From a virus: a stretch of DNA of 64,000 bases. This document shows, in pieces, positions 9 to 52,362 of this stretch (within the stretch, counting starts at the first letter, position 1; every line of letters starts with the position of its first letter). The stretch spans positions 7,824-71,823 of IMG/VR virus record IMGVR_UViG_3300033407_000001, one strand, 5' to 3'. The translations under genes and the position numbers were made by a program. The notes under the pieces are model-generated. The model was not told where the DNA came from and made no database searches. It saw nothing but the letters and a program-made list of their open reading frames with translations.

Positions 9-740
9 GTCTCGTTATCAAAGCCAACGAGCAAGCTATTTAAAGATGCGCTCGCATTCTGCGGAGGTTAGGTAGTCTCGTCATCAAAGCCAAACGAGCA
101 GGCTTTTAGGATTGGCAGGAGTGATGGCCAAATGCAGACAGCTGCGGTCTCGTTATTAAAGCCAACGAGCAAGCTTTTAAGATCAAATATCTCTGTGGAA
201 ATGTCGTAGAGTGTAGGGTCTCGTTATAAAAGCCGACGAGCAAGCTGTTTAAGCGAGGACCCTTGAGCAAGGCGATGTTGAGCGCATTGTCTCGTTATAA
301 AAGCCAACGAGCAAGCTGTTTAAGTCGTACTCAGGTAGGCACCGTCAACCTGCCAGTAGAGGTCTCGTTATCGAAGCCAACGAGCAAGCTATTAAGTTGG
401 TAGCGTTGCCTGGCTCGGACCGGACCGCAGGACGTCTCGTCATCAAAGCCAAACGAGCAAGCTGTTTAAAGGTGATGTCGTTGATAGCGCAAGGCTTTCG
501 ACTGGCCGTCTCGTTATTTAAGCCAACGAGCAAGCTATTTAAGATCGCTCTTCACCAGTGTGGAGTCTCGTCCTTTAAGCCGACGAGCAAGCTGTTCAAG
601 GAGCACGGGGGCTTCTGGCTCGTTGCCAACTACACCGGTCTCGTTCTTTAAGCCAACGAGCAAGCTGTTCAAGGTGGCGAGTGATGCTGATCAAAGCCAA
701 ACTTGTCTCGTCATCAAAGCCGACGAGCAAGCTATTCAAG
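9..740 (-). CRISPR. Type V CRISPR array, 11 degenerate 35-38 bp repeats and 10 spacers (21-37 bp); probably continues beyond the left edge
   Basis: Repeats start at 9, 75, 147, 218, 289, 362, 434, 508, 565, 638, 705. Plus-strand consensus GTCTCGTYATCAAAGCCRACGAGCAAGCTRTTYAAG; minus strand ends ...GAGAC with hairpin CTCGTY-9nt-RACGAG. Lies 41 bp downstream of the Cas12m-like gene on the same strand. Confidence 0.97.
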
Positions 741-781
741 GGCTATCCTAGAAACTATTCAATTATCAAAGAGTTATGTAG

Positions 782-2803
782 CTAATTTCGAGAGGTGGCT
801 TTTCGGACTCTTTTAGCAGGTTCTGCTGGTCCGATTGTTTCCTGGAAAATCCAATCATATTTAGTATTTACAGCCAATGATGGGATGCCTGACTTCCTCG
901 GGTCACCTGGGGTCTCGAAATCGGGTGGGGTTCCTCCGCCGCTGCGGCAGAGGTTGATAGCAGCATTCGCATCCTGGTCCCAGAAGGCACCGCAATCCGA
1001 GCACCAATGATTGATGGATAGCGCATGATCCCAATCGTTAATCACTCCACATTGATGGCACATAGCAGTTATGTGCTTAGAGTCCAGCGCTTCGAATATC
1101 GCGCCATGGTTTCCGCAGGCGTTATTGATGAGGATCCGCATTTTCCCAGGAGATGCGAGTGAGGCTTGTTTTCTGACGATTTTGCTGTTCAGCTCACCGT
1201 CGAAATTTTCCTTGGTCTTGAATTTTGCGTAATTTGTATTATCGACTACAACCTTGCCATATTCACGGGCAAGGAAGGCAGCAAATTTTCGATATGCGTC
1301 TTTCTTGCGTAGCTGGCAGCGGTACTCGATGCCGCGTGTCCTATTATATGCAGCCTTGTCCAGACTTCGCCAGGTTTCCAGTTCGCCAAACATGGCTTCA
1401 TCGCCATCGAAGCGATTTTTTCTCCAATGAAGAACGAATGACGCTAGCTTACGTTGAGATTCCCAGTTTCTAATCATACTGATGCCGCGCCATCCGGTTA
1501 GCCACTGCGGAAGGCTGTCTTGCTCTTTTTTATGACGAGACAGCCAGACCGCAAAAGACTCTTTAATCTGATTGAGTGCCAGGTCTCGCGCCGCCTGCTT
1601 TATGCACATCGTTTCCATCTTTTTGCTGTATTCACCCTCAAGGATGACTTCGCCGTGGCGACCATCGTCTCCGTACCAGTAGGCTGCGCGGATGTTATTG
1701 TCACCGACTCTTCTCCAGCCCAGATTCACTGCGACGACCCCAGGGCGCTGAACTTCTTTTGCCTTATCCTTGCTTAGAGTCAGTTGCAGGTAAAATCGGT
1801 AGGTGGTGCCTGATCTTTTCTGCACAATCTTGGCCCATTTGATTTTCACATCATCTGGGATACTCCTATGCATTGTAATGGGAAATTCCACCCATATTGG
1901 CTTCATGCGATTGGTTGGCGAAGATCCAACACGTATGCGCACCGTTGTTCGACAGTTTTTGCGCCGGAAGGCCCGGTCTGGGGTGCCATCCGGTCTATTC
2001 TTGGTCCAAGGATTGTCCTCCGGGGTCGAGAACGGTTTTGTGATCTGAAGGAATTTGCTACCACCCCATGCCTGCTCGGCGGTGATACCTTTCTGCAGTT
2101 GGACTGAGACAATACCGTCACCAGACCAATGTTTGAATTTTGGATCTTTCCTTCTCCCAGGAGCATATTGGGCCGCCCTAGCGGCTCTTTCGTTTGCCCC
2201 GTAGGTGCCCCAGCATATCTTATGCTGCTCCCTGAACTCATTGCGTATCCTTTTGATTTCCGCAGCGAGTTTCTTATTGTTGGCCGTTATCTTATCTTCA
2301 ATCTCTGGGCGCTGTTTGATTTCCTCGCGTATATCCTTTCGCTCAGAAGTAGCAACCTTCTTCTTAGCCGTAAGCTTTTTCTTGAGATCTTTTGCTCCCT
2401 TATTGGTCTTGTCGGCCTTGAGGATGGCCTTGAGTGATTTGATTTCTTCGGATAGCTCGTCGATCGTTGAATTCAACTCCTCCATGCGGAGGCTAGGGGC
2501 TTCACCTATGATTTCCCTGTATAGCTTCGTTGAGGCTCGATAGGCCTCAGTGAGCTTGTTCCGATGGTCGTGCCCCAGGCGCAGTTGATAGATGAGAGTG
2601 TGACCATTGCACAGGTCACCATCGGTGTCCTGATTACATTTTGGACAGTCGCTCTCCGGTCCCGCGAATGTCGGTCTCCCAAGGCGGAATTCAATAGTAT
2701 TTTCGACTGTTTTATGGCTTTCGATTTTGCAAATCGAACAGACCTGAATCAGTTCTTTTTTTGGATCTGGATGGTCTCCCCACCTGTGTTGATGTGTAGG
2801 CAT
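782..2803 (-). CDS. cas12m: Type V-M CRISPR effector, Cas12m-like (TnpB-derived; RuvC predicted inactive)
   Basis: RuvC-I VAVNLGWR (Asp replaced by Asn), RuvC-II VVVDNT (Asp for Glu), Zn finger CHQC...CSDC, RuvC-III DQDANAAINL, WGTY and GDGIVSVQLQ motifs, long Lys/Glu coiled-coil REC insertion. These match MmCas12m motifs as recalled (ALHLGWR, VLVDDT, GSGTIAVQLQ). Abuts the array. Confidence 0.85.
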   Translation of the reverse strand: MPTHQHRWGDHPDPKKELIQVCSICKIESHKTVENTIEFRLGRPTFAGPESDCPKCNQDTDGDLCNGHTLIYQLRLGHDHRNKLTEAYRASTKLYREIIGEAPSLRMEELNSTIDELSEEIKSLKAILKADKTNKGAKDLKKKLTAKKKVATSERKDIREEIKQRPEIEDKITANNKKLAAEIKRIRNEFREQHKICWGTYGANERAARAAQYAPGRRKDPKFKHWSGDGIVSVQLQKGITAEQAWGGSKFLQITKPFSTPEDNPWTKNRPDGTPDRAFRRKNCRTTVRIRVGSSPTNRMKPIWVEFPITMHRSIPDDVKIKWAKIVQKRSGTTYRFYLQLTLSKDKAKEVQRPGVVAVNLGWRRVGDNNIRAAYWYGDDGRHGEVILEGEYSKKMETMCIKQAARDLALNQIKESFAVWLSRHKKEQDSLPQWLTGWRGISMIRNWESQRKLASFVLHWRKNRFDGDEAMFGELETWRSLDKAAYNRTRGIEYRCQLRKKDAYRKFAAFLAREYGKVVVDNTNYAKFKTKENFDGELNSKIVRKQASLASPGKMRILINNACGNHGAIFEALDSKHITAMCHQCGVINDWDHALSINHWCSDCGAFWDQDANAAINLCRSGGGTPPDFETPGDPRKSGIPSLAVNTKYDWIFQETIGPAEPAKRVRKATSRN

Positions 2804-3498: not shown

Positions 3499-3954
3499 TC
3501 AAGACTGATGCATCGTCGTCTGGAGCAGGTCCAGGGTGATTCCTAGCTCCTCGGCTACAGAGAAGATTTTATCGTCTCGGTAGAATTCAGCGTAAACAAT
3601 GCGCTTCATTCCAGCGTTGGCAATCATCTTGAAGCATGGCCAGCAGGGGCTTGCTGTGGTGTAAAGCATCGCGCTATCAATAGAGGTGCCATTCTTGGCA
3701 GCCTGGATGATGGCATTTTGCTCTGCGTGGATGGTCGCCACACAGTGGTTGTCCTCCATCATGCAGCCGACGCCAGGGTCATCGCAGTGAGGCAAGCCTT
3801 TGATCGATCCATTGTAGCCAGTGGCTAGGATGGACTTGTCGCGGACGATCACAGCACCGACATGCTTACGCGGGCATGTGGCGCGAGTGGCCACGTCTGT
3901 GGCTATGTTCATAAAATAATGATCCCAGGATGCTCTTTCCATGGCCGGGACCAT
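3499..3954 (-). CDS. dCMP deaminase (ComEB/DCTD family)
   Basis: HAEQNA and SPCWPC zinc-binding motifs; RATCPRKHVGAVIV...ATGYNG. Confidence 0.93.
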   Translation of the reverse strand: MVPAMERASWDHYFMNIATDVATRATCPRKHVGAVIVRDKSILATGYNGSIKGLPHCDDPGVGCMMEDNHCVATIHAEQNAIIQAAKNGTSIDSAMLYTTASPCWPCFKMIANAGMKRIVYAEFYRDDKIFSVAEELGITLDLLQTTMHQS

Positions 3955-5254: not shown

Positions 5255-5290
5255 AGTGAAAAGCCTGCTTGATGGCTTAGAAATCAAGAC
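5255..5290 (+). CRISPR. Solitary variant CRISPR repeat (unit A)
   Basis: AGTGAAAAGCCTGCTTGATGGCTTAGAAATCAAGAC; last 31 nt identical to 33075-33105 (minus) and 23/31 identical to the array consensus with a compensated stem; extended -10 TGGTAACGT at 5242-5250. Confidence 0.7.
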
Positions 5291-5304: not shown

Positions 5305-5838
5305 TCACTTGGGGCTAATCATCATTGTCATGACGCGGTTTTCATACCGAGCAGCCCTCTCTAGTTTCGCTATGTCTACCAGCTCAACCATGATCTTGTC
5401 CAATATGGCCTTGCCAACCTCCGGGTGAGCGTTCTCACGTCCCCGAAATCTAACCTCAAATTGGACTTTGTTCCCTTCTTCTAGGAACTTGCGGGCATGC
5501 TTGGATTTGAAGGCAATATCGTGAACGTCAGTCTTAGGTCTGAGCTTAATCTGCTTCAGCTCAACCTTGGTCTGGTTCTTTTTGGCAACGTTTTTGCGCT
5601 TTTTCTCTGCATATAAGAATTTACCGTAGTCTATGATCTTGCAGACAGGCGGCCTAACCTCTGGAGATATCTCAACTAGATCCATCTCCATCTCTTCAGC
5701 CTTAGCTAGCGCTTCGGCGATGGGCATGATCCCCTGTTGCGTACCATCCGCAAGAACAACACGTACAGAGGACACTCTGATGCTTTTGTTCATGCGTGGA
5801 CCCATTGGCTTCTTGGGTCGCCTCTCGTTACCTCTCAT
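5305..5838 (-). CDS. infC: Translation initiation factor IF-3
   Basis: MNKSIR..VRVV, DLVEISP...PPVCKIIDYGKFLY, KQIKLRPKTDVHD, FLEEGNKV..EVRFRGRE. Confidence 0.97.
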   Translation of the reverse strand: MRGNERRPKKPMGPRMNKSIRVSSVRVVLADGTQQGIMPIAEALAKAEEMEMDLVEISPEVRPPVCKIIDYGKFLYAEKKRKNVAKKNQTKVELKQIKLRPKTDVHDIAFKSKHARKFLEEGNKVQFEVRFRGRENAHPEVGKAILDKIMVELVDIAKLERAARYENRVMTMMISPK

Positions 5839-6076: not shown

Positions 6077-6262
6077 TTATTCCGGCTTGTAGTCAAATGC
6101 CATGTCTATGCATTTGTCGCGCAGGGTGTCAAAATCTTTTTTGAACTCATCGTTTGTTCCTTCGAAGGGCACGTCTCTGTCTCGCAGGGAGTCGATTAGC
6201 TTCCAAACTAACCAGCGTTCCCGCTTAGTAATTTTCGCTATCCGTTTCTTCTGTTGCATCAT
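6077..6262 (-). CDS. Hypothetical protein
   Basis: Tiles between neighbours on the coding strand. Confidence 0.5.
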   Translation of the reverse strand: MMQQKKRIAKITKRERWLVWKLIDSLRDRDVPFEGTNDEFKKDFDTLRDKCIDMAFDYKPE

Positions 6263-8018
6263 TTTTCACTGGTATGAACTGAAGCACCTTGGCTACGTCC
6301 GGTTCCTTAACTTCGAGTCCACGCTGCTTCATGAATGCTTCGGCGAGTTTCTTGGAGTTGTGCCCCTCGGTATTGCTGCGTGCGATGAGGCTTGCATTGG
6401 GATCTCTGATGCCTTGCATTTGAGATCTCTTCACGCCTAGGACGTCGGCAATGATCGGATCACTGCCAAATTCCGAGAGTAGGTAATAGGCCATGACTGG
6501 GTCTGGTTGACCATCCCTGTGGGCTCGCCCTGTACATTGATCGTGGACCCCTGGCGACCAGTCTAGCTCACCGAACACAACGGTTCTGCAGCAGTACTGC
6601 AGTCCATCCAATCCGGCGCCGGCACGGAGGGACATCATCAGAATTTTGCTTTCGCCCTCAACAAACCTTCGCTTGGATTCGATCTTCTGTGCCGTACTTT
6701 GCCTGCCCGTGTACATGGCCGGGTTGAGGTCTTTCAGCTTTGCCTGCCATATTCCATAAACCTCATGGTGCCATCCATATAGAAGAACGGATTCACCAGA
6801 TTCTACGAGTATTCTTACAAAGTCTGCAACATACGGCGCCTTCGCAAGGCCGGTGGCCTGCCTGAGTACGTTCGATAGCTGCTCTGCAGCCATCATCTTC
6901 ATGCCCTTCTTGGCTTCGCCTTGGGCAAGGATTATCTGGGCCAGCTCAGCCGCTGAGTCCTCAATTTTACTGAGTTCTTCAGTGTTGGCTTCAATGGCGT
7001 GGGGAATCTTAGTGAGGGGCTCAAGCTCACGGCCAACCTCGCTTCTAGTCCGCCTGATCATCAATCCGATTTCCCTGAGATAAGATCCAAAACCCTTTGG
7101 ATCTGTTATCGATGGTTTATCTCCAGATGATCCACTGCACCATTCTCTGAGAAATTCTGCGCGAGTCCCTAGTACGTCAGGAGCAATCGATGACATGACG
7201 TTAAAGAATTCTCCACCGTAGTTGTAAATCGGAGTCGCGCTCAATCCGACGCGAGTCCTGGAATGGCCGGATACGTGCGCCGCTGCAATAGTCTTCTGTG
7301 ACTCAGATCTGCGCAATTCTTGGCACTCATCGAAGATAACACTCTTGGTCACACCAGCGAGAGTCTCTGCCCAACCACGAAGTTTGTGGTAGTTGATGAT
7401 GATAACGTCAGGGAAGAGGACCTTTTTCTCTTCTTTGTTTTTACCCCTGCCGACGGTTACTTTGGTCATGTCGTACGGAGAACTCTTCTTTACGATATGA
7501 GTACGAAGTCCAGGAAGGAACTTGTTTACTTCACTCTCCCATTGCTTAGGAAGGTGAGTCAGCGTGACGACGAGCGCTGGTAAATTAGACGGGTCAGTGA
7601 AAATACACATGCCGGTGATCGTCTTGCCAAGTCCAAGATCATCAGCAACGAGAAGTCTGCCAGTTCGCATCGCAAGGGCGGCTGCTACCTTCTGGTATTC
7701 TCTCGGCGGTAAAGCCATTTCCATCTCTGGCGGCTCGTATCCATCGGCTAGGATATCTGCAATGGCTGAGTCCTTAGCTCTCTGTTCATCGGCTTTTTCC
7801 GTCAGAACCAGCTGATCATTGGCCTCGATCTCCATTGGATACCGAGACATGAACCACTCAAGCTCCCTTGAGTTGTCAGTGGTCGCAGATAGCCATTGTT
7901 CGCCATACTGGCCTTTGTCTATCTGTTTGAAGATTCTCTTAAGTCGGAGAGCCACTTGTGGCTCGCATTGTATGACCCAGGTATCTTTGACTAGTGCTAC
8001 TTTTCCGTACGTTCTCAA
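6225..8018 (-). CDS. SNF2/DEAD-like SF2 helicase
   Basis: ADDLGLGKT, FDECQELR, LSATPIYN, MSLRAGAGLDGLQ, DQCTGRAHRDGQ. Confidence 0.93.
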   Translation of the reverse strand: MRTYGKVALVKDTWVIQCEPQVALRLKRIFKQIDKGQYGEQWLSATTDNSRELEWFMSRYPMEIEANDQLVLTEKADEQRAKDSAIADILADGYEPPEMEMALPPREYQKVAAALAMRTGRLLVADDLGLGKTITGMCIFTDPSNLPALVVTLTHLPKQWESEVNKFLPGLRTHIVKKSSPYDMTKVTVGRGKNKEEKKVLFPDVIIINYHKLRGWAETLAGVTKSVIFDECQELRRSESQKTIAAAHVSGHSRTRVGLSATPIYNYGGEFFNVMSSIAPDVLGTRAEFLREWCSGSSGDKPSITDPKGFGSYLREIGLMIRRTRSEVGRELEPLTKIPHAIEANTEELSKIEDSAAELAQIILAQGEAKKGMKMMAAEQLSNVLRQATGLAKAPYVADFVRILVESGESVLLYGWHHEVYGIWQAKLKDLNPAMYTGRQSTAQKIESKRRFVEGESKILMMSLRAGAGLDGLQYCCRTVVFGELDWSPGVHDQCTGRAHRDGQPDPVMAYYLLSEFGSDPIIADVLGVKRSQMQGIRDPNASLIARSNTEGHNSKKLAEAFMKQRGLEVKEPDVAKVLQFIPVKNDATEETDSENY

Positions 8019-8416
8019 AGAAGGCTGCCAACTAAACTGTGAATAAGCACGGGTTTGCCGTTGATCATCTGAGGTATTTGATTAAGTCTCGCCTTGGCGC
8101 TCACAATCAAGATCCCTCTGATGGATTCATGCTGAACATATCTATGCACTTGGCGAGTAAGAGCGCTTAGTGAGTGCTTGATCTTGACCTCGACACCAAT
8201 CATGGTCTCCGGCCAGTAGAAATCTATCCGATCTTCCTTGGACAGAATACATTCAGATTGGAAGGGGGATTCCAGAGTCTCAAATACTTCCTTGATTCCG
8301 ACTTGAAGATCAGCCTCACAGGTGTAATTGAAGTTGTACTGCTTGAGCAGGCTATCAAGCTCTTTGAGCCACGTTTCGGCTTTAATACGAGGCTCAAGTT
8401 TGACAATATCACTCAC
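8015..8416 (-). CDS. Putative PD-(D/E)XK nuclease-fold protein
   Basis: RIDFY...GVEVK...RQVHRY pattern; coupled to the helicase gene. Confidence 0.5.
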   Translation of the reverse strand: MSDIVKLEPRIKAETWLKELDSLLKQYNFNYTCEADLQVGIKEVFETLESPFQSECILSKEDRIDFYWPETMIGVEVKIKHSLSALTRQVHRYVQHESIRGILIVSAKARLNQIPQMINGKPVLIHSLVGSLL

Positions 8417-8783
8417 TATCGGCTTCGGTTTGTCCTGAGCGGAGTCTTGCGCCTTCCAGCTCTGCTGGTGTCACTCCTGTGCCGATGCCCAGGGTATGTT
8501 CGACTGGTGACATGGCCACGAGGACTTGGATGCTCATCTCTTCGATCGCCTTGATGTTGTCATCTAGCAGTTTGATGTATGACCTCATGTCGGCTACCGG
8601 CCAATCCCTGGCCGTGATGTTATTGGCCATGCAGAGTTGAACCCTGGCAAATGCGGCCAGAGCCTTCTCCTTGTGCTGCGCAATAGATTGGTTTAGCGCC
8701 TGAATCTTCTTGAGATTCTGAGTTCCCTCCGGGTGTCTAACGCCGAGGAAAGACTTAGCTACGTCGGTGTATTTCTCGTCCAT
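8409..8783 (-). CDS. Hypothetical protein
   Basis: Tiling ORF downstream of a TTGACAATT box (about 8810-8818). Confidence 0.6.
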   Translation of the reverse strand: MDEKYTDVAKSFLGVRHPEGTQNLKKIQALNQSIAQHKEKALAAFARVQLCMANNITARDWPVADMRSYIKLLDDNIKAIEEMSIQVLVAMSPVEHTLGIGTGVTPAELEGARLRSGQTEADSE

Positions 8784-33019: not shown

Positions 33020-33184
33020 CAATTGTCAAGCTGGCCTAGGGTAGGTCGAGGGCGGAGTTGATTTTCTCTTCCTTGTCTTGATTTCTAAGCCATCAAGCAG
33101 GCTTTGCAGCTATTTATTGCTGAATGCTGCAATTGTCAAGCTGGCCTAGAGTAGGTCGATGGCGAAGTTAATTCGCTCTTCTTT
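33020..33184. repeat. Imperfect 55-bp direct repeat (33020-33074 and 33130-33184) bracketing solitary repeat unit B
   Basis: 48/55 identity at a 110-bp offset; each copy contains TTGACAATT; copy 2 encodes the recombinase C-terminus. Confidence 0.9.
33075..33110 (-). CRISPR. Solitary variant CRISPR repeat (unit B)
   Basis: GCTGCAAAGCCTGCTTGATGGCTTAGAAATCAAGAC; 33/36 identical to unit A; TTGACA (33134-33139)-N17-TAAATA directly upstream. Confidence 0.75.
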
Positions 33185-38186: not shown

Positions 38187-38591
38187 TTAGTAAACACCTG
38201 AGGAGCTACAGAATTTCAGGAGTCGCGACTCAAACCTCCTGCCAGCCTGAAATGCTTTGAGTTCTGCTTCCGTGCAGTAGCAGGTGAAGTTGTACCAAGC
38301 GCCGCATGGACATATGGGATTGGGGTTCTTAGTACATTCCGGGCAGGACTTCCTTGGTCCACAGTCACAGGGATCATCATCGGGGCTGGCAGGAACGGTG
38401 TAGACGGCCTCTTCGCCGAGGATATCCAATGGCTGCATCCCTAGAGAAAAGTGAGTAACCATGGCTGTGCAATCACCTCTTCTCGCATGACGATAAGAGG
38501 TCAAGACATGACCGGAAACCTGCCGAAGTATCACATCCTCGTTGCAGACCCTGCACCTGTAGGGGCTCCTGTGTTTGTCAGGATGGGTCAT
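38187..38591 (-). CDS. Cys-rich hypothetical protein
   Basis: Tiling ORF. Confidence 0.5.
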   Translation of the reverse strand: MTHPDKHRSPYRCRVCNEDVILRQVSGHVLTSYRHARRGDCTAMVTHFSLGMQPLDILGEEAVYTVPASPDDDPCDCGPRKSCPECTKNPNPICPCGAWYNFTCYCTEAELKAFQAGRRFESRLLKFCSSSGVY

Positions 38592-45057: not shown

Positions 45058-45093
45058 GTCTCGTAATCAAAGCCAACGAGCAAGCTTGTTCAG
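45058..45093 (-). CRISPR. Solitary CRISPR repeat of the array type (unit C)
   Basis: Plus strand GTCTCGTAATCAAAGCCAACGAGCAAGCTTGTTCAG, 28/29 identical to array repeat 1; TTGACA (45136-45141)-N17-TGTAGT upstream; no second repeat nearby. Confidence 0.88.
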
Positions 45094-45950
45094 AAAGACA
45101 CTTCGTCAAAGAACTACATCACCTGCTATTTCCATTGTCAATATTTCTAAGGGTGCAGTATCGCGAGGGCTTAGTATGAAAGTATTTTCCTGGACAATAG
45201 CAGATGATGTATTAAGGGGGAATTGTCCATAAAATCGATCCCTTGATCCATTGGCAGATGATCTGGTAATCATAAGGGGTGATGATGAAAATACTTTCAT
45301 GGTTGATTTTGTAACACTGGGTAATTGCTGGAGTTAGGTGGTTGGATATAGTGGGAGGATCTGCTTTCGGCCTCCCTCGCCGGGGCAAAAAAGTTCACAA
45401 AAGATCGAACGCAAATGGACGCAAGTGCAGGAAAACTCCTGAGTTTTCCGAATTTCTCACTGTTCAGGGGAGGGTCAAAAGCTAACGCAAACGAGCCCTG
45501 CATTGTCAAAGCGATTGTCAAGGCAGGGCTCGGATCAGGAAAACTCCTGAGTTTTCCTTATGTATCAGGGAGGTAGTGGTTAGGTTATGGTCTCGTCCCA
45601 GACTGCCCCGTGTTGGCTCCAGGGTAGACAAGCGTCTGAGTTTTCTCTAGGCCCCTACGAGGAAAACTCAAGCCATCACCACTGCTTACCTCTGGGCGCT
45701 CGTCCAGCTCCTTCTTTTTCCTCTTGCCAGCAGCGACTAGATCTCTACCTTCAGCTATAAGCTTCCTGAACATAGCTTGAGTATACCATGAACCCCCAAA
45801 TGGGTGTACCTTGACAATGCAGATCTGATCTCATCCTGAAAAGTTCAAATCCTCGGGGTTTTTCTAACTAACTACCTGAAATGTCGTCATTGACAATTGC
45901 TCGGATTACCAATAATCCACCCTTTCTCTACTATATAAAAACAGATACTT

Positions 45951-50824: not shown

Positions 50825-50888
50825 CTATATATGGAAGAGTTTTCCTTGATAAGATGAAATTATGGGTTCACTCAGGTGTTTATAGACT

Positions 50889-52092: not shown

Positions 52093-52362
52093 GGGTAATG
52101 TTGCTCATTATAAATGTCGGGGGAGGGTGGTTCCTCCCCCGGCGCCCCGCTTAAGCAATGGAAAACTCTAAGAGTTTTCTTTGCCGCGCAAGCGCTTGCG
52201 CTGGTACGATGTGATTCCACCGGGGCGGATAACACGCACCCATATTGATCGGCCTGCTCGCTGGCTTCGATGGCGAGACTGCCTACCTATAGAACACCTG
52301 AGCCAGAGTGAAGTTTCTGCGTTTTCGCTGAAATTCTGCGAGAGCTGAAGTGTTTATGTACC

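What the first reader, a model, noticed from the sequence alone, without database searches (positions are those of the whole stretch)
9..740. All 11 array repeats differ, but stem pairing is conserved
Seen: no two repeats are identical (35-38 bp). Variation falls in the loop and distal end, while GTCTCGT, AAGCC and ACGAGCA are invariant, and the closing pair covaries (T..A in R1/3/5/6/8/10, C..G in R9/11). Established: Cas1-Cas2 adaptation copies the leader-proximal repeat and homogenises arrays. Inference: an old, adaptation-independent array kept by selection on each guide, with divergence limiting recombinational loss, as expected for fixed regulatory guides.
Basis: partly seen in the sequence, partly recalled or inferred. 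Interest (0 to 1): 0.6.

Follow-up and report, generated by a model that had tools for sequence, protein, structure and literature searches.

The report
Phage Cas12m array with near-unique repeats
A huge phage carries a non-cutting CRISPR protein (Cas12m) followed by a 35-repeat guide array in which almost every repeat is spelled differently, yet all keep the RNA fold the protein grips; this is an extreme case of a trait that also occurs in bacterial arrays of this CRISPR type.

Summary
The full array has 35 repeats and 34 spacers (contig 6122-8563); only the last 11 repeats lie in the window. Of the 35 repeats, 32 are distinct.

The array lies 41 nt downstream of a 673-aa Cas12m (type V-M, RuvC N360-D521-D611). 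The phage record holds no cas1, cas2 or cas4.

On the minus (crRNA) strand, variation sits almost entirely at four positions: two in the 5' tail and two in the apical loop. The stem's closing pair also varies.

The 6-bp stem and a 3-bp pseudoknot are kept in 98.8% of cells. The pseudoknot explains the "invariant AAGCC". Both helices covary strongly across other V-M arrays. Within this array, closing-pair "covariation" is not significant (p = 0.35).

Tail, core and loop variants assort freely, so 32 distinct repeats is the expected number, not an excess.

Six or more of 13 bacterial V-M arrays also have mixed repeats, and so does a sister phage.

No spacer matches the phage itself, sister loci, reference phages or plasmids.

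Best reading: a working Cas12m guide array that is no longer homogenised by adaptation. Selection holds the scaffold, and free positions are scrambled by mutation and repeat-to-repeat recombination. "Fixed regulatory guides" and "selected anti-recombination divergence" remain untested. Earlier notes of this scan describe degenerate Cas12m repeats in other phages.

The parts
9..740 (-). Cas-proximal 11 repeats (R25-R35) and 10 spacers of a 35-repeat type V-M CRISPR array. The other 24 repeats lie before the window start, at contig 6122-7795 (window -1701 to -28).
   Evidence: Repeat table. Covariance model R1 hits all 35 repeats at 46-62 bits. Repeat alignment A1.
705..740 (-). R35, the first repeat after cas12m on the crRNA strand. 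Closing pair C:G.
218..253 (-). R28, the only repeat outside R1-R3 with an unpaired stem cell: its closing pair is unpaired on the RNA strand (C.A).
674..704 (-). First spacer (31 nt). It contains a 13-nt fragment of the repeat core.
   Evidence: blastn-short against the repeats, E 3e-4
741..781 (-). 41-nt AT-rich interval between the cas12m stop codon and the first repeat. The array is probably co-transcribed with cas12m. One weak sigma-70-like match spans window 762-791, i.e. this interval and the last bases of cas12m.
   Evidence: the promoter match is not above the shuffled expectation
782..2803 (-). cas12m, 673 aa. RuvC positions N360, D521, D611. CxxC...CxxC zinc finger at residues 582-604. 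About 70 extra N-terminal residues.
   Evidence: PDB 23vw_A Cas12m E 9e-56, 8pm4 GoCas12m 9e-38, 8hhl Cas12m2 2e-30. Pfam PF07282. Motif positions.
5255..5290 (+). Solitary repeat of the same family
   Evidence: model R1, 29.3 bits, E 2e-7
33075..33110 (-). Solitary repeat of the same family
   Evidence: model R1, 26.4 bits, E 1.5e-6
45058..45094 (-). Solitary repeat of the same family
   Evidence: model R1, 40.3 bits
52244..52279 (+). Solitary repeat with a compensated stem pair (U:A to C:G) and a compensated pseudoknot pair
   Evidence: model R1, 35.3 bits, E 2e-9

Best explanation
This is the guide array of a phage-borne type V-M CRISPR-Cas12m system. It is transcribed on the minus strand, together with or just after cas12m.

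Each 36-37-nt repeat folds into the Cas12m handle: a 6-bp stem closed by a G.A pair next to the guide, plus a 3-bp pseudoknot between GCU in the 5' part and GGC in the loop. Cas12m would cut the transcript into crRNAs and use them to bind, not cut, matching DNA. That binding would block transcription or replication of the targets, most likely competing mobile elements.

The phage has no Cas1-Cas2, so new copies of the first repeat are not being added and nothing homogenises the array. Purifying selection holds every position the protein or the fold needs. The few free positions are -33, -30, -12, -11 and the closing pair. Point mutation and recombination or conversion between repeats scramble these positions. 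Tail and loop variants therefore occur in nearly all combinations, and almost every repeat ends up unique.

Shown here: the anatomy, the fold conservation, the absence of adaptation genes, and the free assortment of variants. Inferred: transcription, processing, DNA-binding interference, and the nature of the targets.
For: - The effector is Cas12m: E 9e-56 to PDB 23vw and 9e-38 to GoCas12m. The N-D-D triad is one of the three triads characterised as binding-only in PMC11013384.
- The order cas12m then array, with repeats ending GAGAC before the spacer, is the same in the sister phage and in bacterial V-M loci.
- The fold is kept. 98.8% of cells pair within the array. Across 34 repeats from 13 V-M arrays, 92.6% pair with 76 double-sided changes, and 0 of 500 shuffles reach this.
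- The geometry matches the Cas12m2 scaffold of G.A plus a 6-bp helix plus a pseudoknot (PMC10442227).
- The three single-sided changes at pseudoknot pair 11:21 turn U.G into C:G or U:A.
- Minus-strand RNA folds better than plus-strand RNA (-6.8 against -4.8 kcal/mol). Twelve distinct repeats have G.U there, which would be C.A on the other strand.
- Constraint: 7 differences in 18 paired columns against 101 in 16 others, with 78 of those in 4 columns.
- The free tail positions sit at or beside the published 5' trimming site and in the disordered 5' end.
- No cas1, cas2 or cas4, and only one Cas12m in the record.
- Free assortment: tail against loop columns give p 0.19-0.78. 32 distinct repeats are observed against 33.6 +/- 1.0 expected.
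- Family trait: mixed repeats occur in L050, L051, L053, L055, L057, L059 and the sister phage L008.
Against: - No target was found for any of the 34 spacers, so interference is inferred from homology only.
- Loop positions -12 and -11 may correspond to nucleotides that contact the protein in Cas12m2, so 'free' is an inference from variability.
- Regular spacer lengths (26 of 34 are 35-38 nt) imply that a ruler-like acquisition machine once built the array, and this machine is unidentified.
- The record is about 92% complete, and a 286.8-kb contig with the same Cas12m exists. Adaptation genes could lie in unseen DNA.
Confidence: 0.62

Rival explanations
1. The heterogeneity is itself selected. 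Repeats are kept different so that the phage's recombination machinery cannot delete units. The array would be a recombination-hardened guide library.
For: - The median longest identical run between two repeats is 17 nt, and only 4 of 595 pairs share all 36 nt.
- A second assembly with the identical Cas12m has a cas12m-to-next-gene gap of 2488 nt against 2559 nt here. The 71-nt difference equals the start-to-start distance of R15/R16, the only adjacent identical repeats.
Against: - The number of distinct repeats is not above free-assortment expectation (P(>=32) = 0.97).
- Neighbouring repeats are, if anything, slightly more alike than random pairs (4.94 against 5.20 differences).
- Three other adjacent pairs also have a 71-nt period, and the DNA of the second assembly could not be read.
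- Mixed repeats also occur in bacterial V-M arrays.
Confidence: 0.17
2. The guides are fixed regulators. Each spacer silences a host or phage gene through Cas12m binding, and the array is kept by selection on each guide.
For: - Cas12m binds without cutting and represses transcription (PMC11013384, PMC10442227).
- The sister phage's 17-repeat array is identical in two samples and shows no spacer gain or loss in a third.
- Solitary repeats elsewhere in the genome show that the phage uses the handle outside the array.
Against: - No spacer matches the phage's own 199.6 kb. The best ungapped identities of 0.58-0.67 for full-length spacers lie inside the shuffled null.
- The host is unknown, so host targets were not testable.
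- Spacer GC of 53% is close to the phage's 51%, which gives no hint of a high-GC host source.
- The sister samples are only 0.18% diverged, so their stability says little.
Confidence: 0.12
3. The array is a decaying relic that no longer makes functional crRNAs.
For: - No adaptation genes and no identifiable targets.
- Three distal repeats carry stem-breaking changes.
- Some spacers are short (16, 21 and 27 nt), and the first spacer holds a repeat fragment.
Against: - 32 of 35 repeats keep all ten scaffold pairs, and the conserved core never varies.
- Differences per column are about 16-fold lower in paired than in other columns.
- cas12m is intact, with a conserved zinc finger and the N-D-D triad of active binders.
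- Published Cas12m guides are trimmed to about 17-20 nt, so short spacers can still work.
Confidence: 0.05

Closest known systems
Type V-M (formerly V-U1) CRISPR-Cas12m: MmCas12m2 (PDB 8HHL/8HHM/8HIO, PMC10442227), GoCas12m (PDB 8PM4, PMC11013384), PmCas12m (bioRxiv 10.64898/2026.03.26.714355)
   Same: - Homologous effector (E 9e-56 to 2e-30).
- An N-D-D RuvC triad, as in two characterised binding-only orthologues.
- A 36-nt repeat with G.A, a 6-bp helix and a pseudoknot, read directly before the guide.
- The array lies downstream of the gene, with no adaptation genes.
   Different: - Encoded by a roughly 200-290-kb phage.
- 35 repeats, where V-M arrays are described as short (PMC10691335).
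- 32 of 35 repeats are unique.
- The protein has about 70 extra N-terminal residues with two CxxC motifs.
- Extra solitary repeats are scattered in the genome.
MvCas12m of myxophage MV-1 (bioRxiv 10.64898/2026.09.14.751636), reported there as the first phage-encoded Cas12m
   Same: Phage-borne Cas12m next to an array, no cas1/cas2/cas4, no tracrRNA, and no protospacers found.
   Different: MV-1 has eight spacers and one consensus repeat, and it keeps a D-E-D triad. The locus here has 34 spacers, near-unique repeats and an N-D-D triad.
Cas12r-CRISPR of Thermus Lalka phages (bioRxiv 10.64898/2026.04.20.719267)
   Same: Phage type V effector followed by an array of 'degenerate' repeats, with no adaptation genes in the phage.
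   Different: - A different Cas12 family with 29-nt repeats and short arrays.
- The spacers there differ between isolates at the cas-proximal end, and most have matches in host-borne elements. Ongoing acquisition in trans is therefore inferred.
- Neither feature was seen here.
Trailer-end repeat degeneration in canonical CRISPR arrays (general knowledge; CRISPRDetect, PMC4869251, uses it to orient arrays)
   Same: The three repeats farthest from cas12m (R1-R3) are the only ones with broken stems.
   Different: Here variation is not a trailer gradient. It affects every repeat, including the first, and there is no positional trend.
Engineered non-repetitive guide arrays, such as extra-long sgRNA arrays
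   Same: Many guides are carried with handles that differ in sequence but keep the fold, which lowers homologous recombination.
   Different: Those arrays are designed. Here no evidence shows that the diversity is selected.

Membership tests
Type V-M CRISPR-Cas12m | Effector homologous to Cas12m over the WED/REC/RuvC/zinc-finger core | tested here: met
   phmmer: residues 70-619 align to 23vw_A (E 9e-56), 8pm4_A (9e-38) and 8hhl_A (2e-30). PF07282 is above its cut-off.
Type V-M CRISPR-Cas12m | RuvC site of one of the family's types (D-E-D, H-D-D, N-D-D) and a CxxC...CxxC zinc finger | tested here: met
   N360 is in VAVNLGWR, aligned to D of 23vw and H322 of GoCas12m. D521 and D611 follow. Cysteines at 582, 585, 601 and 604. 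Triad classes from PMC11013384.
Type V-M CRISPR-Cas12m | Adjacent CRISPR array whose repeat forms the stem plus pseudoknot handle directly 5' of the guide | tested here: met
   The array starts 41 nt after the stop codon. 98.8% of cells pair. Family-wide covariation gives 0/500 shuffles. The geometry matches PMC10442227.
Type V-M CRISPR-Cas12m | No adaptation module in the locus | tested here: met
   No Cas1, Cas2 or Cas4 profile hit at E <= 1 in the 199.6-kb record, with controls positive. The record may be incomplete.
Type V-M CRISPR-Cas12m | Self-processing of pre-crRNA and PAM-dependent DNA binding without cleavage | not testable with these tools
   Needs biochemistry or small-RNA data.
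Canonical adaptive CRISPR array (active Cas1-Cas2 acquisition) | Identical or near-identical repeats, with the newest at the leader end | tested here: not met
   32 of 35 repeats are distinct. The three cas-proximal repeats all differ. There is no positional similarity (lag-1 p = 0.16).
Canonical adaptive CRISPR array (active Cas1-Cas2 acquisition) | Spacer turnover between close relatives | tested here: inconclusive
   The sister phage array shows no gain or loss in three samples at <= 0.18% divergence. This phage shows a 71-nt length difference between two assemblies, but the DNA of the second was not readable.

The most novel reading that the evidence does not exclude
The array is a naturally 'de-repeated' guide library. 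In a recombination-proficient jumbo phage without Cas1-Cas2, selection favours repeat variants that break homology into runs of 18 nt or less while keeping the Cas12m pseudoknot handle. Units are reshuffled or exchanged between co-infecting phages by crossovers in the conserved 18-nt core. This would be a Cas1-independent way to maintain and remodel a large CRISPR memory.
Probability: 0.18. Interest if true: 0.65.

Novelty: new variant of a known kind. Interest (0 to 1): 0.45.

Why it matters
The array works as a natural mutational scan of the Cas12m guide handle. Thirty-five working-looking versions show which positions can change (-33, -30, -12, -11 and the closing pair) and which cannot. 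That is directly useful for designing stable multi-guide Cas12m arrays for gene repression and base editing.

It also shows what a large CRISPR array looks like when nothing homogenises it. It points to repeat-to-repeat recombination as a force shaping such arrays. And it adds a second, much larger example of Cas12m in phages, a setting reported only in 2026. It does not reveal a new kind of system.

Tried and rejected
- **Spacer targets.** blastn-short of all spacers against the phage's own genome gave only chance 14-19-mers. Ungapped scans against the genome and against 473 kb of sister-phage loci stayed within shuffled nulls. The whole array against the INPHARED phages and PLSDB plasmids, at word size 11, gave no match. 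Exact 22-mers of two spacers gave no match in IMG/VR.
- **Related arrays.** The repeat core in IMG/VR gave 33 single hits, none with the full repeat, so these are chance hits. The repeat pattern in JGI metagenomes found only the sister phage and one solitary repeat.
- **SNF2-based sister contigs.** In the up-to-10-kb flanks held around the SNF2 match in 27 contigs there is no Cas12m, but synteny is not kept there, so this is uninformative.
- **Rfam.** No family matches the array.
- **Promoter and terminator scan.** Nothing above the shuffled expectation.
- **The genome search 'relatives'.** Not available for virus records.
- **Ideas rejected.**
  - A DGR-like targeted diversification was considered and dropped, because the variable sites are not adenine-specific.
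  - A second effector using a subset of repeat variants was rejected, because only one Cas12m/TnpB-like gene is present.
  - A fourth pseudoknot pair (A8:U24) is invariant here, but 14 of 34 family repeats do not pair there, so it is not claimed.

Full report
**1. What is in the sequence**

Window 9-740 holds 11 direct repeats of 36-37 nt with a period of 57-74 nt, and no two are identical. The window is contig positions 7824-71823 of a 199,636-bp linear virus record that CheckV rates at about 92% complete.

The same repeat continues upstream of the window start. The whole array spans contig 6122-8563 and has 35 repeats and 34 spacers. A covariance model built from the repeats recovers exactly these 35 at 46-62 bits. 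It also finds four solitary copies elsewhere in the window.

Of the 35 repeats, 32 are distinct. R12, R15 and R16 are identical, and so are R5 and R8. Spacers are 16-41 nt long, and 26 of 34 are 35-38 nt.

**2. What the array belongs to**

The first repeat begins 41 nt after the stop codon of a 673-aa ORF at window 782-2803 on the minus strand. This protein aligns over residues 70-620 to solved Cas12m structures: 23vw E 9e-56, GoCas12m 8pm4 9e-38, and Cas12m2 8hhl 2e-30. It carries the Cas12f1-like TNB zinc finger.

Its RuvC positions are N360, D521 and D611. Bigelyte et al. characterised D-E-D, H-D-D and N-D-D Cas12m variants. All of them bind PAM-flanked dsDNA without cutting and protect by blocking transcription or replication (PMC11013384).

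The record has no Cas1, Cas2 or Cas4 and only this one Cas12m/TnpB-type gene. Lack of adaptation genes is the published norm for V-U1/V-M systems.

**3. Strand and fold**

In this phage, in the sister phage and in every bacterial V-M locus fetched, the array follows cas12m on the same strand. The repeats read ...GAGAC directly before the spacer. The crRNA strand is therefore the window's minus strand.

On that strand (alignment A1) each repeat has four elements:
- a 7-nt tail;
- the block AGCUUG;
- a 6-bp stem, CUCGUY with RACGAG;
- a loop that begins GGCUU.

Three of these features match the Cas12m2 scaffold described by Omura et al. (G(-23).A(-2), a 6-bp helix and a pseudoknot; PMC10442227):
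- G(-24) and A(-2) flank the stem;
- the stem occupies -23..-18 and -8..-3;
- GCU at -28..-26 can pair with GGC at -17..-15.

Within the array 98.8% of the 320 pair cells are standard pairs, against 20-55% when partners are slid. The only changes at pseudoknot pair 11:21 turn U.G into C:G (R7, R26) or U:A (R6).

Across 34 repeats from 13 V-M arrays the same ten pairs are 92.6% paired, with 76 double-sided changes. None of 500 shuffles reaches this, and slid controls give 32-45%. Three pseudoknot pairs are supported. The fourth (8:24) is not.

Minus-strand RNAs fold better than plus-strand RNAs (mean -6.8 against -4.8 kcal/mol). Twelve distinct repeats have a G.U closing pair there, which would be a C.A mismatch on the other strand.

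**4. Where the variation lies**

Relative to the consensus, the counts are:

| Column class | Columns | Differences |
|---|---|---|
| Scaffold-paired | 18 | 7 |
| Closing pair | 2 | 22 |
| Other | 16 | 101 |

Of the 101 differences in other columns, 78 fall in four columns: 4 and 7 (positions -33 and -30) and 26 and 27 (positions -12 and -11). Six of the 16 unpaired columns never vary.

Positions -36 to -30 are disordered in the Cas12m2 structure. PmCas12m trims pre-crRNA after the second or third repeat nucleotide. The tail sites therefore sit at the very 5' end of the mature RNA.

Stem-breaking changes occur only in R1, R2 and R3, the three repeats farthest from cas12m. R28 has the single C.A closing pair.

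The closing pair is U:A 15, U.G 12, C:G 4 and C.A 1 among the 32 distinct repeats. Its two columns are not significantly associated (p = 0.35).

**5. Why almost every repeat is unique**

There are 14 tail variants, 9 core variants and 17 loop variants. Tail and loop columns are statistically independent (p = 0.19-0.78), while columns within each module are linked.

Permuting the three modules among repeats gives 33.6 +/- 1.0 distinct sequences. The observed number is 32. Uniqueness is therefore the expected result of free assortment, not an excess.

Adjacent repeats are neither more nor less alike than random pairs (4.94 against 5.20 differences, p = 0.16). There is no block structure of the kind leader-end copying leaves, and there is no repulsion between neighbours.

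The longest identical run shared by two repeats has a median of 17 nt, which is the conserved core.

**6. Relatives**

The only close Cas12m relative (P0002, 53% identity) lies in a syntenic phage context: IF3, deaminase, cas12m, array, DFP. Its array has 17 repeats, of which 12 are distinct. Identical neighbours form blocks at the cas-proximal end (repeats 1-3, 6-7 and 8-9). The most divergent repeats lie further along. They carry a compensatory pseudoknot change from U:A to C:G.

That array is identical in two samples. In a third it differs at five sites and shows no spacer gain or loss.

Across the 5,044 nt shared with that third sample there are eight substitutions. Three of them fall within 16 nt of one repeat, at tail columns 5 and 7 and pseudoknot column 21. 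My estimate for such clustering by chance is about 6e-4. This points to patch-wise change of repeats on a short timescale.

For the phage studied here, a 286.8-kb contig from another assembly encodes the identical Cas12m. Its gap from cas12m to the next gene is 2,488 nt, against 2,559 nt here. The difference is 71 nt, which is one repeat-spacer unit.

Four adjacent repeat pairs have a 71-nt period. Only R15/R16 are identical. The DNA of that contig could not be read, so which unit differs is an inference.

**7. Is this special within V-M?**

I examined arrays next to 13 bacterial Cas12m homologues and one distant viral one.
- Uniform or nearly uniform repeats: L007, L048, L049, L054, L060.
- Mixed repeats, often with compensatory stem or pseudoknot changes: L050, L051, L053, L055, L056, L057, L059, L065.
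- L052 also shows mixed repeats, but with irregular spacing and copies on both strands, so it may not be a standard array.

Repeat heterogeneity is thus a recurrent trait of this adaptation-less subtype. This phage is the extreme case in both size and degree. The papers I could read do not describe the trait for V-M. They note short V-M arrays (PMC10691335), 'degenerate' repeats in a different phage type V system, and one consensus repeat in the only reported phage Cas12m.

**8. Targets**

No array spacer matches the phage's own record, sister-phage loci, reference phages, plasmids or IMG/VR. Spacer GC is 53% against 51% for the genome. The first spacer contains a 13-nt repeat fragment. Function against competitors versus regulation therefore stays open.

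**9. Verdict**

The system is a type V-M Cas12m locus on a jumbo phage.

The best-supported mechanism is loss of homogenisation, with strong purifying selection on the pseudoknot handle. Mutation and recombination among repeats scramble the few free positions.

'Old', 'fixed regulatory guides' and 'divergence selected against recombination' are not shown.

Earlier notes of this scan describe solitary and degenerate Cas12m repeats in this phage and in other phages. I confirmed the positions of three such solitary repeats and found a fourth.

Noticed in passing
window 52244-52279 (+) and the guide position from 52280: A fourth solitary Cas12m repeat, not among the three in earlier notes. Its stem pair is compensated (U:A to C:G) and so is its pseudoknot pair. 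The sequence in guide position carries TATAGAACACCTGAG...AAGTTTC. This resembles a motif, TAAACACCTGAG-N10-AATTTCA, found at window 38192 (+), 44899 (+) and 50871 (-). At those three sites a CAT triplet (ATG on the minus strand at 38192 and 44899, on the plus strand at 50871) lies just 5' of the motif; no ORF start was checked. The reverse complement, CTCAGGTGTT, looks like a ribosome-binding site.
   Followed up: partly
window 2594-2803 (-), residues 1-70 of Cas12m: About 70 N-terminal residues lie outside the alignment to all solved Cas12m structures. They contain CSIC (residue 22) and CPKC (residue 53). The sister phage protein has a similar cysteine pattern. This may be an extra zinc ribbon.
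   Followed up: no
window 674-704 and 601-637: The first spacer holds a 13-nt copy of the repeat core (E 3e-4). The third spacer from cas12m (between R34 and R33) contains CTCGTT directly followed by GCCAAC on the plus strand, like a repeat with its loop deleted. These look like traces of rearrangement inside the array.
   Followed up: partly
contig 6724-6760 and 6871-6911 (before the window start): Two spacers, S10 and S12, share a 10-nt 3' end, GCCACCTCTA. They may derive from related targets, or this may be chance (E 0.024).
   Followed up: no
L046 (Ga0210003_1035227), near its end: A solitary repeat of the sister phage's type lies on a separate 2.7-kb contig from the same metagenome as the sister array. 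The sister lineage therefore probably also scatters single repeats.
   Followed up: no
L052 5637-7818 (Dehalococcoidia MAG): Downstream of a Cas12m homologue lie more than 15 highly diverged repeat copies on both strands with irregular spacing. This is unlike a normal array.
   Followed up: no
window 3499-3954, 5305-5838, 6225-8018 (-): The neighbours of cas12m are a dCMP deaminase, a full-length IF3 homologue and an SNF2 helicase. The IF3-deaminase-cas12m order is kept in the sister phage.
   Followed up: partly
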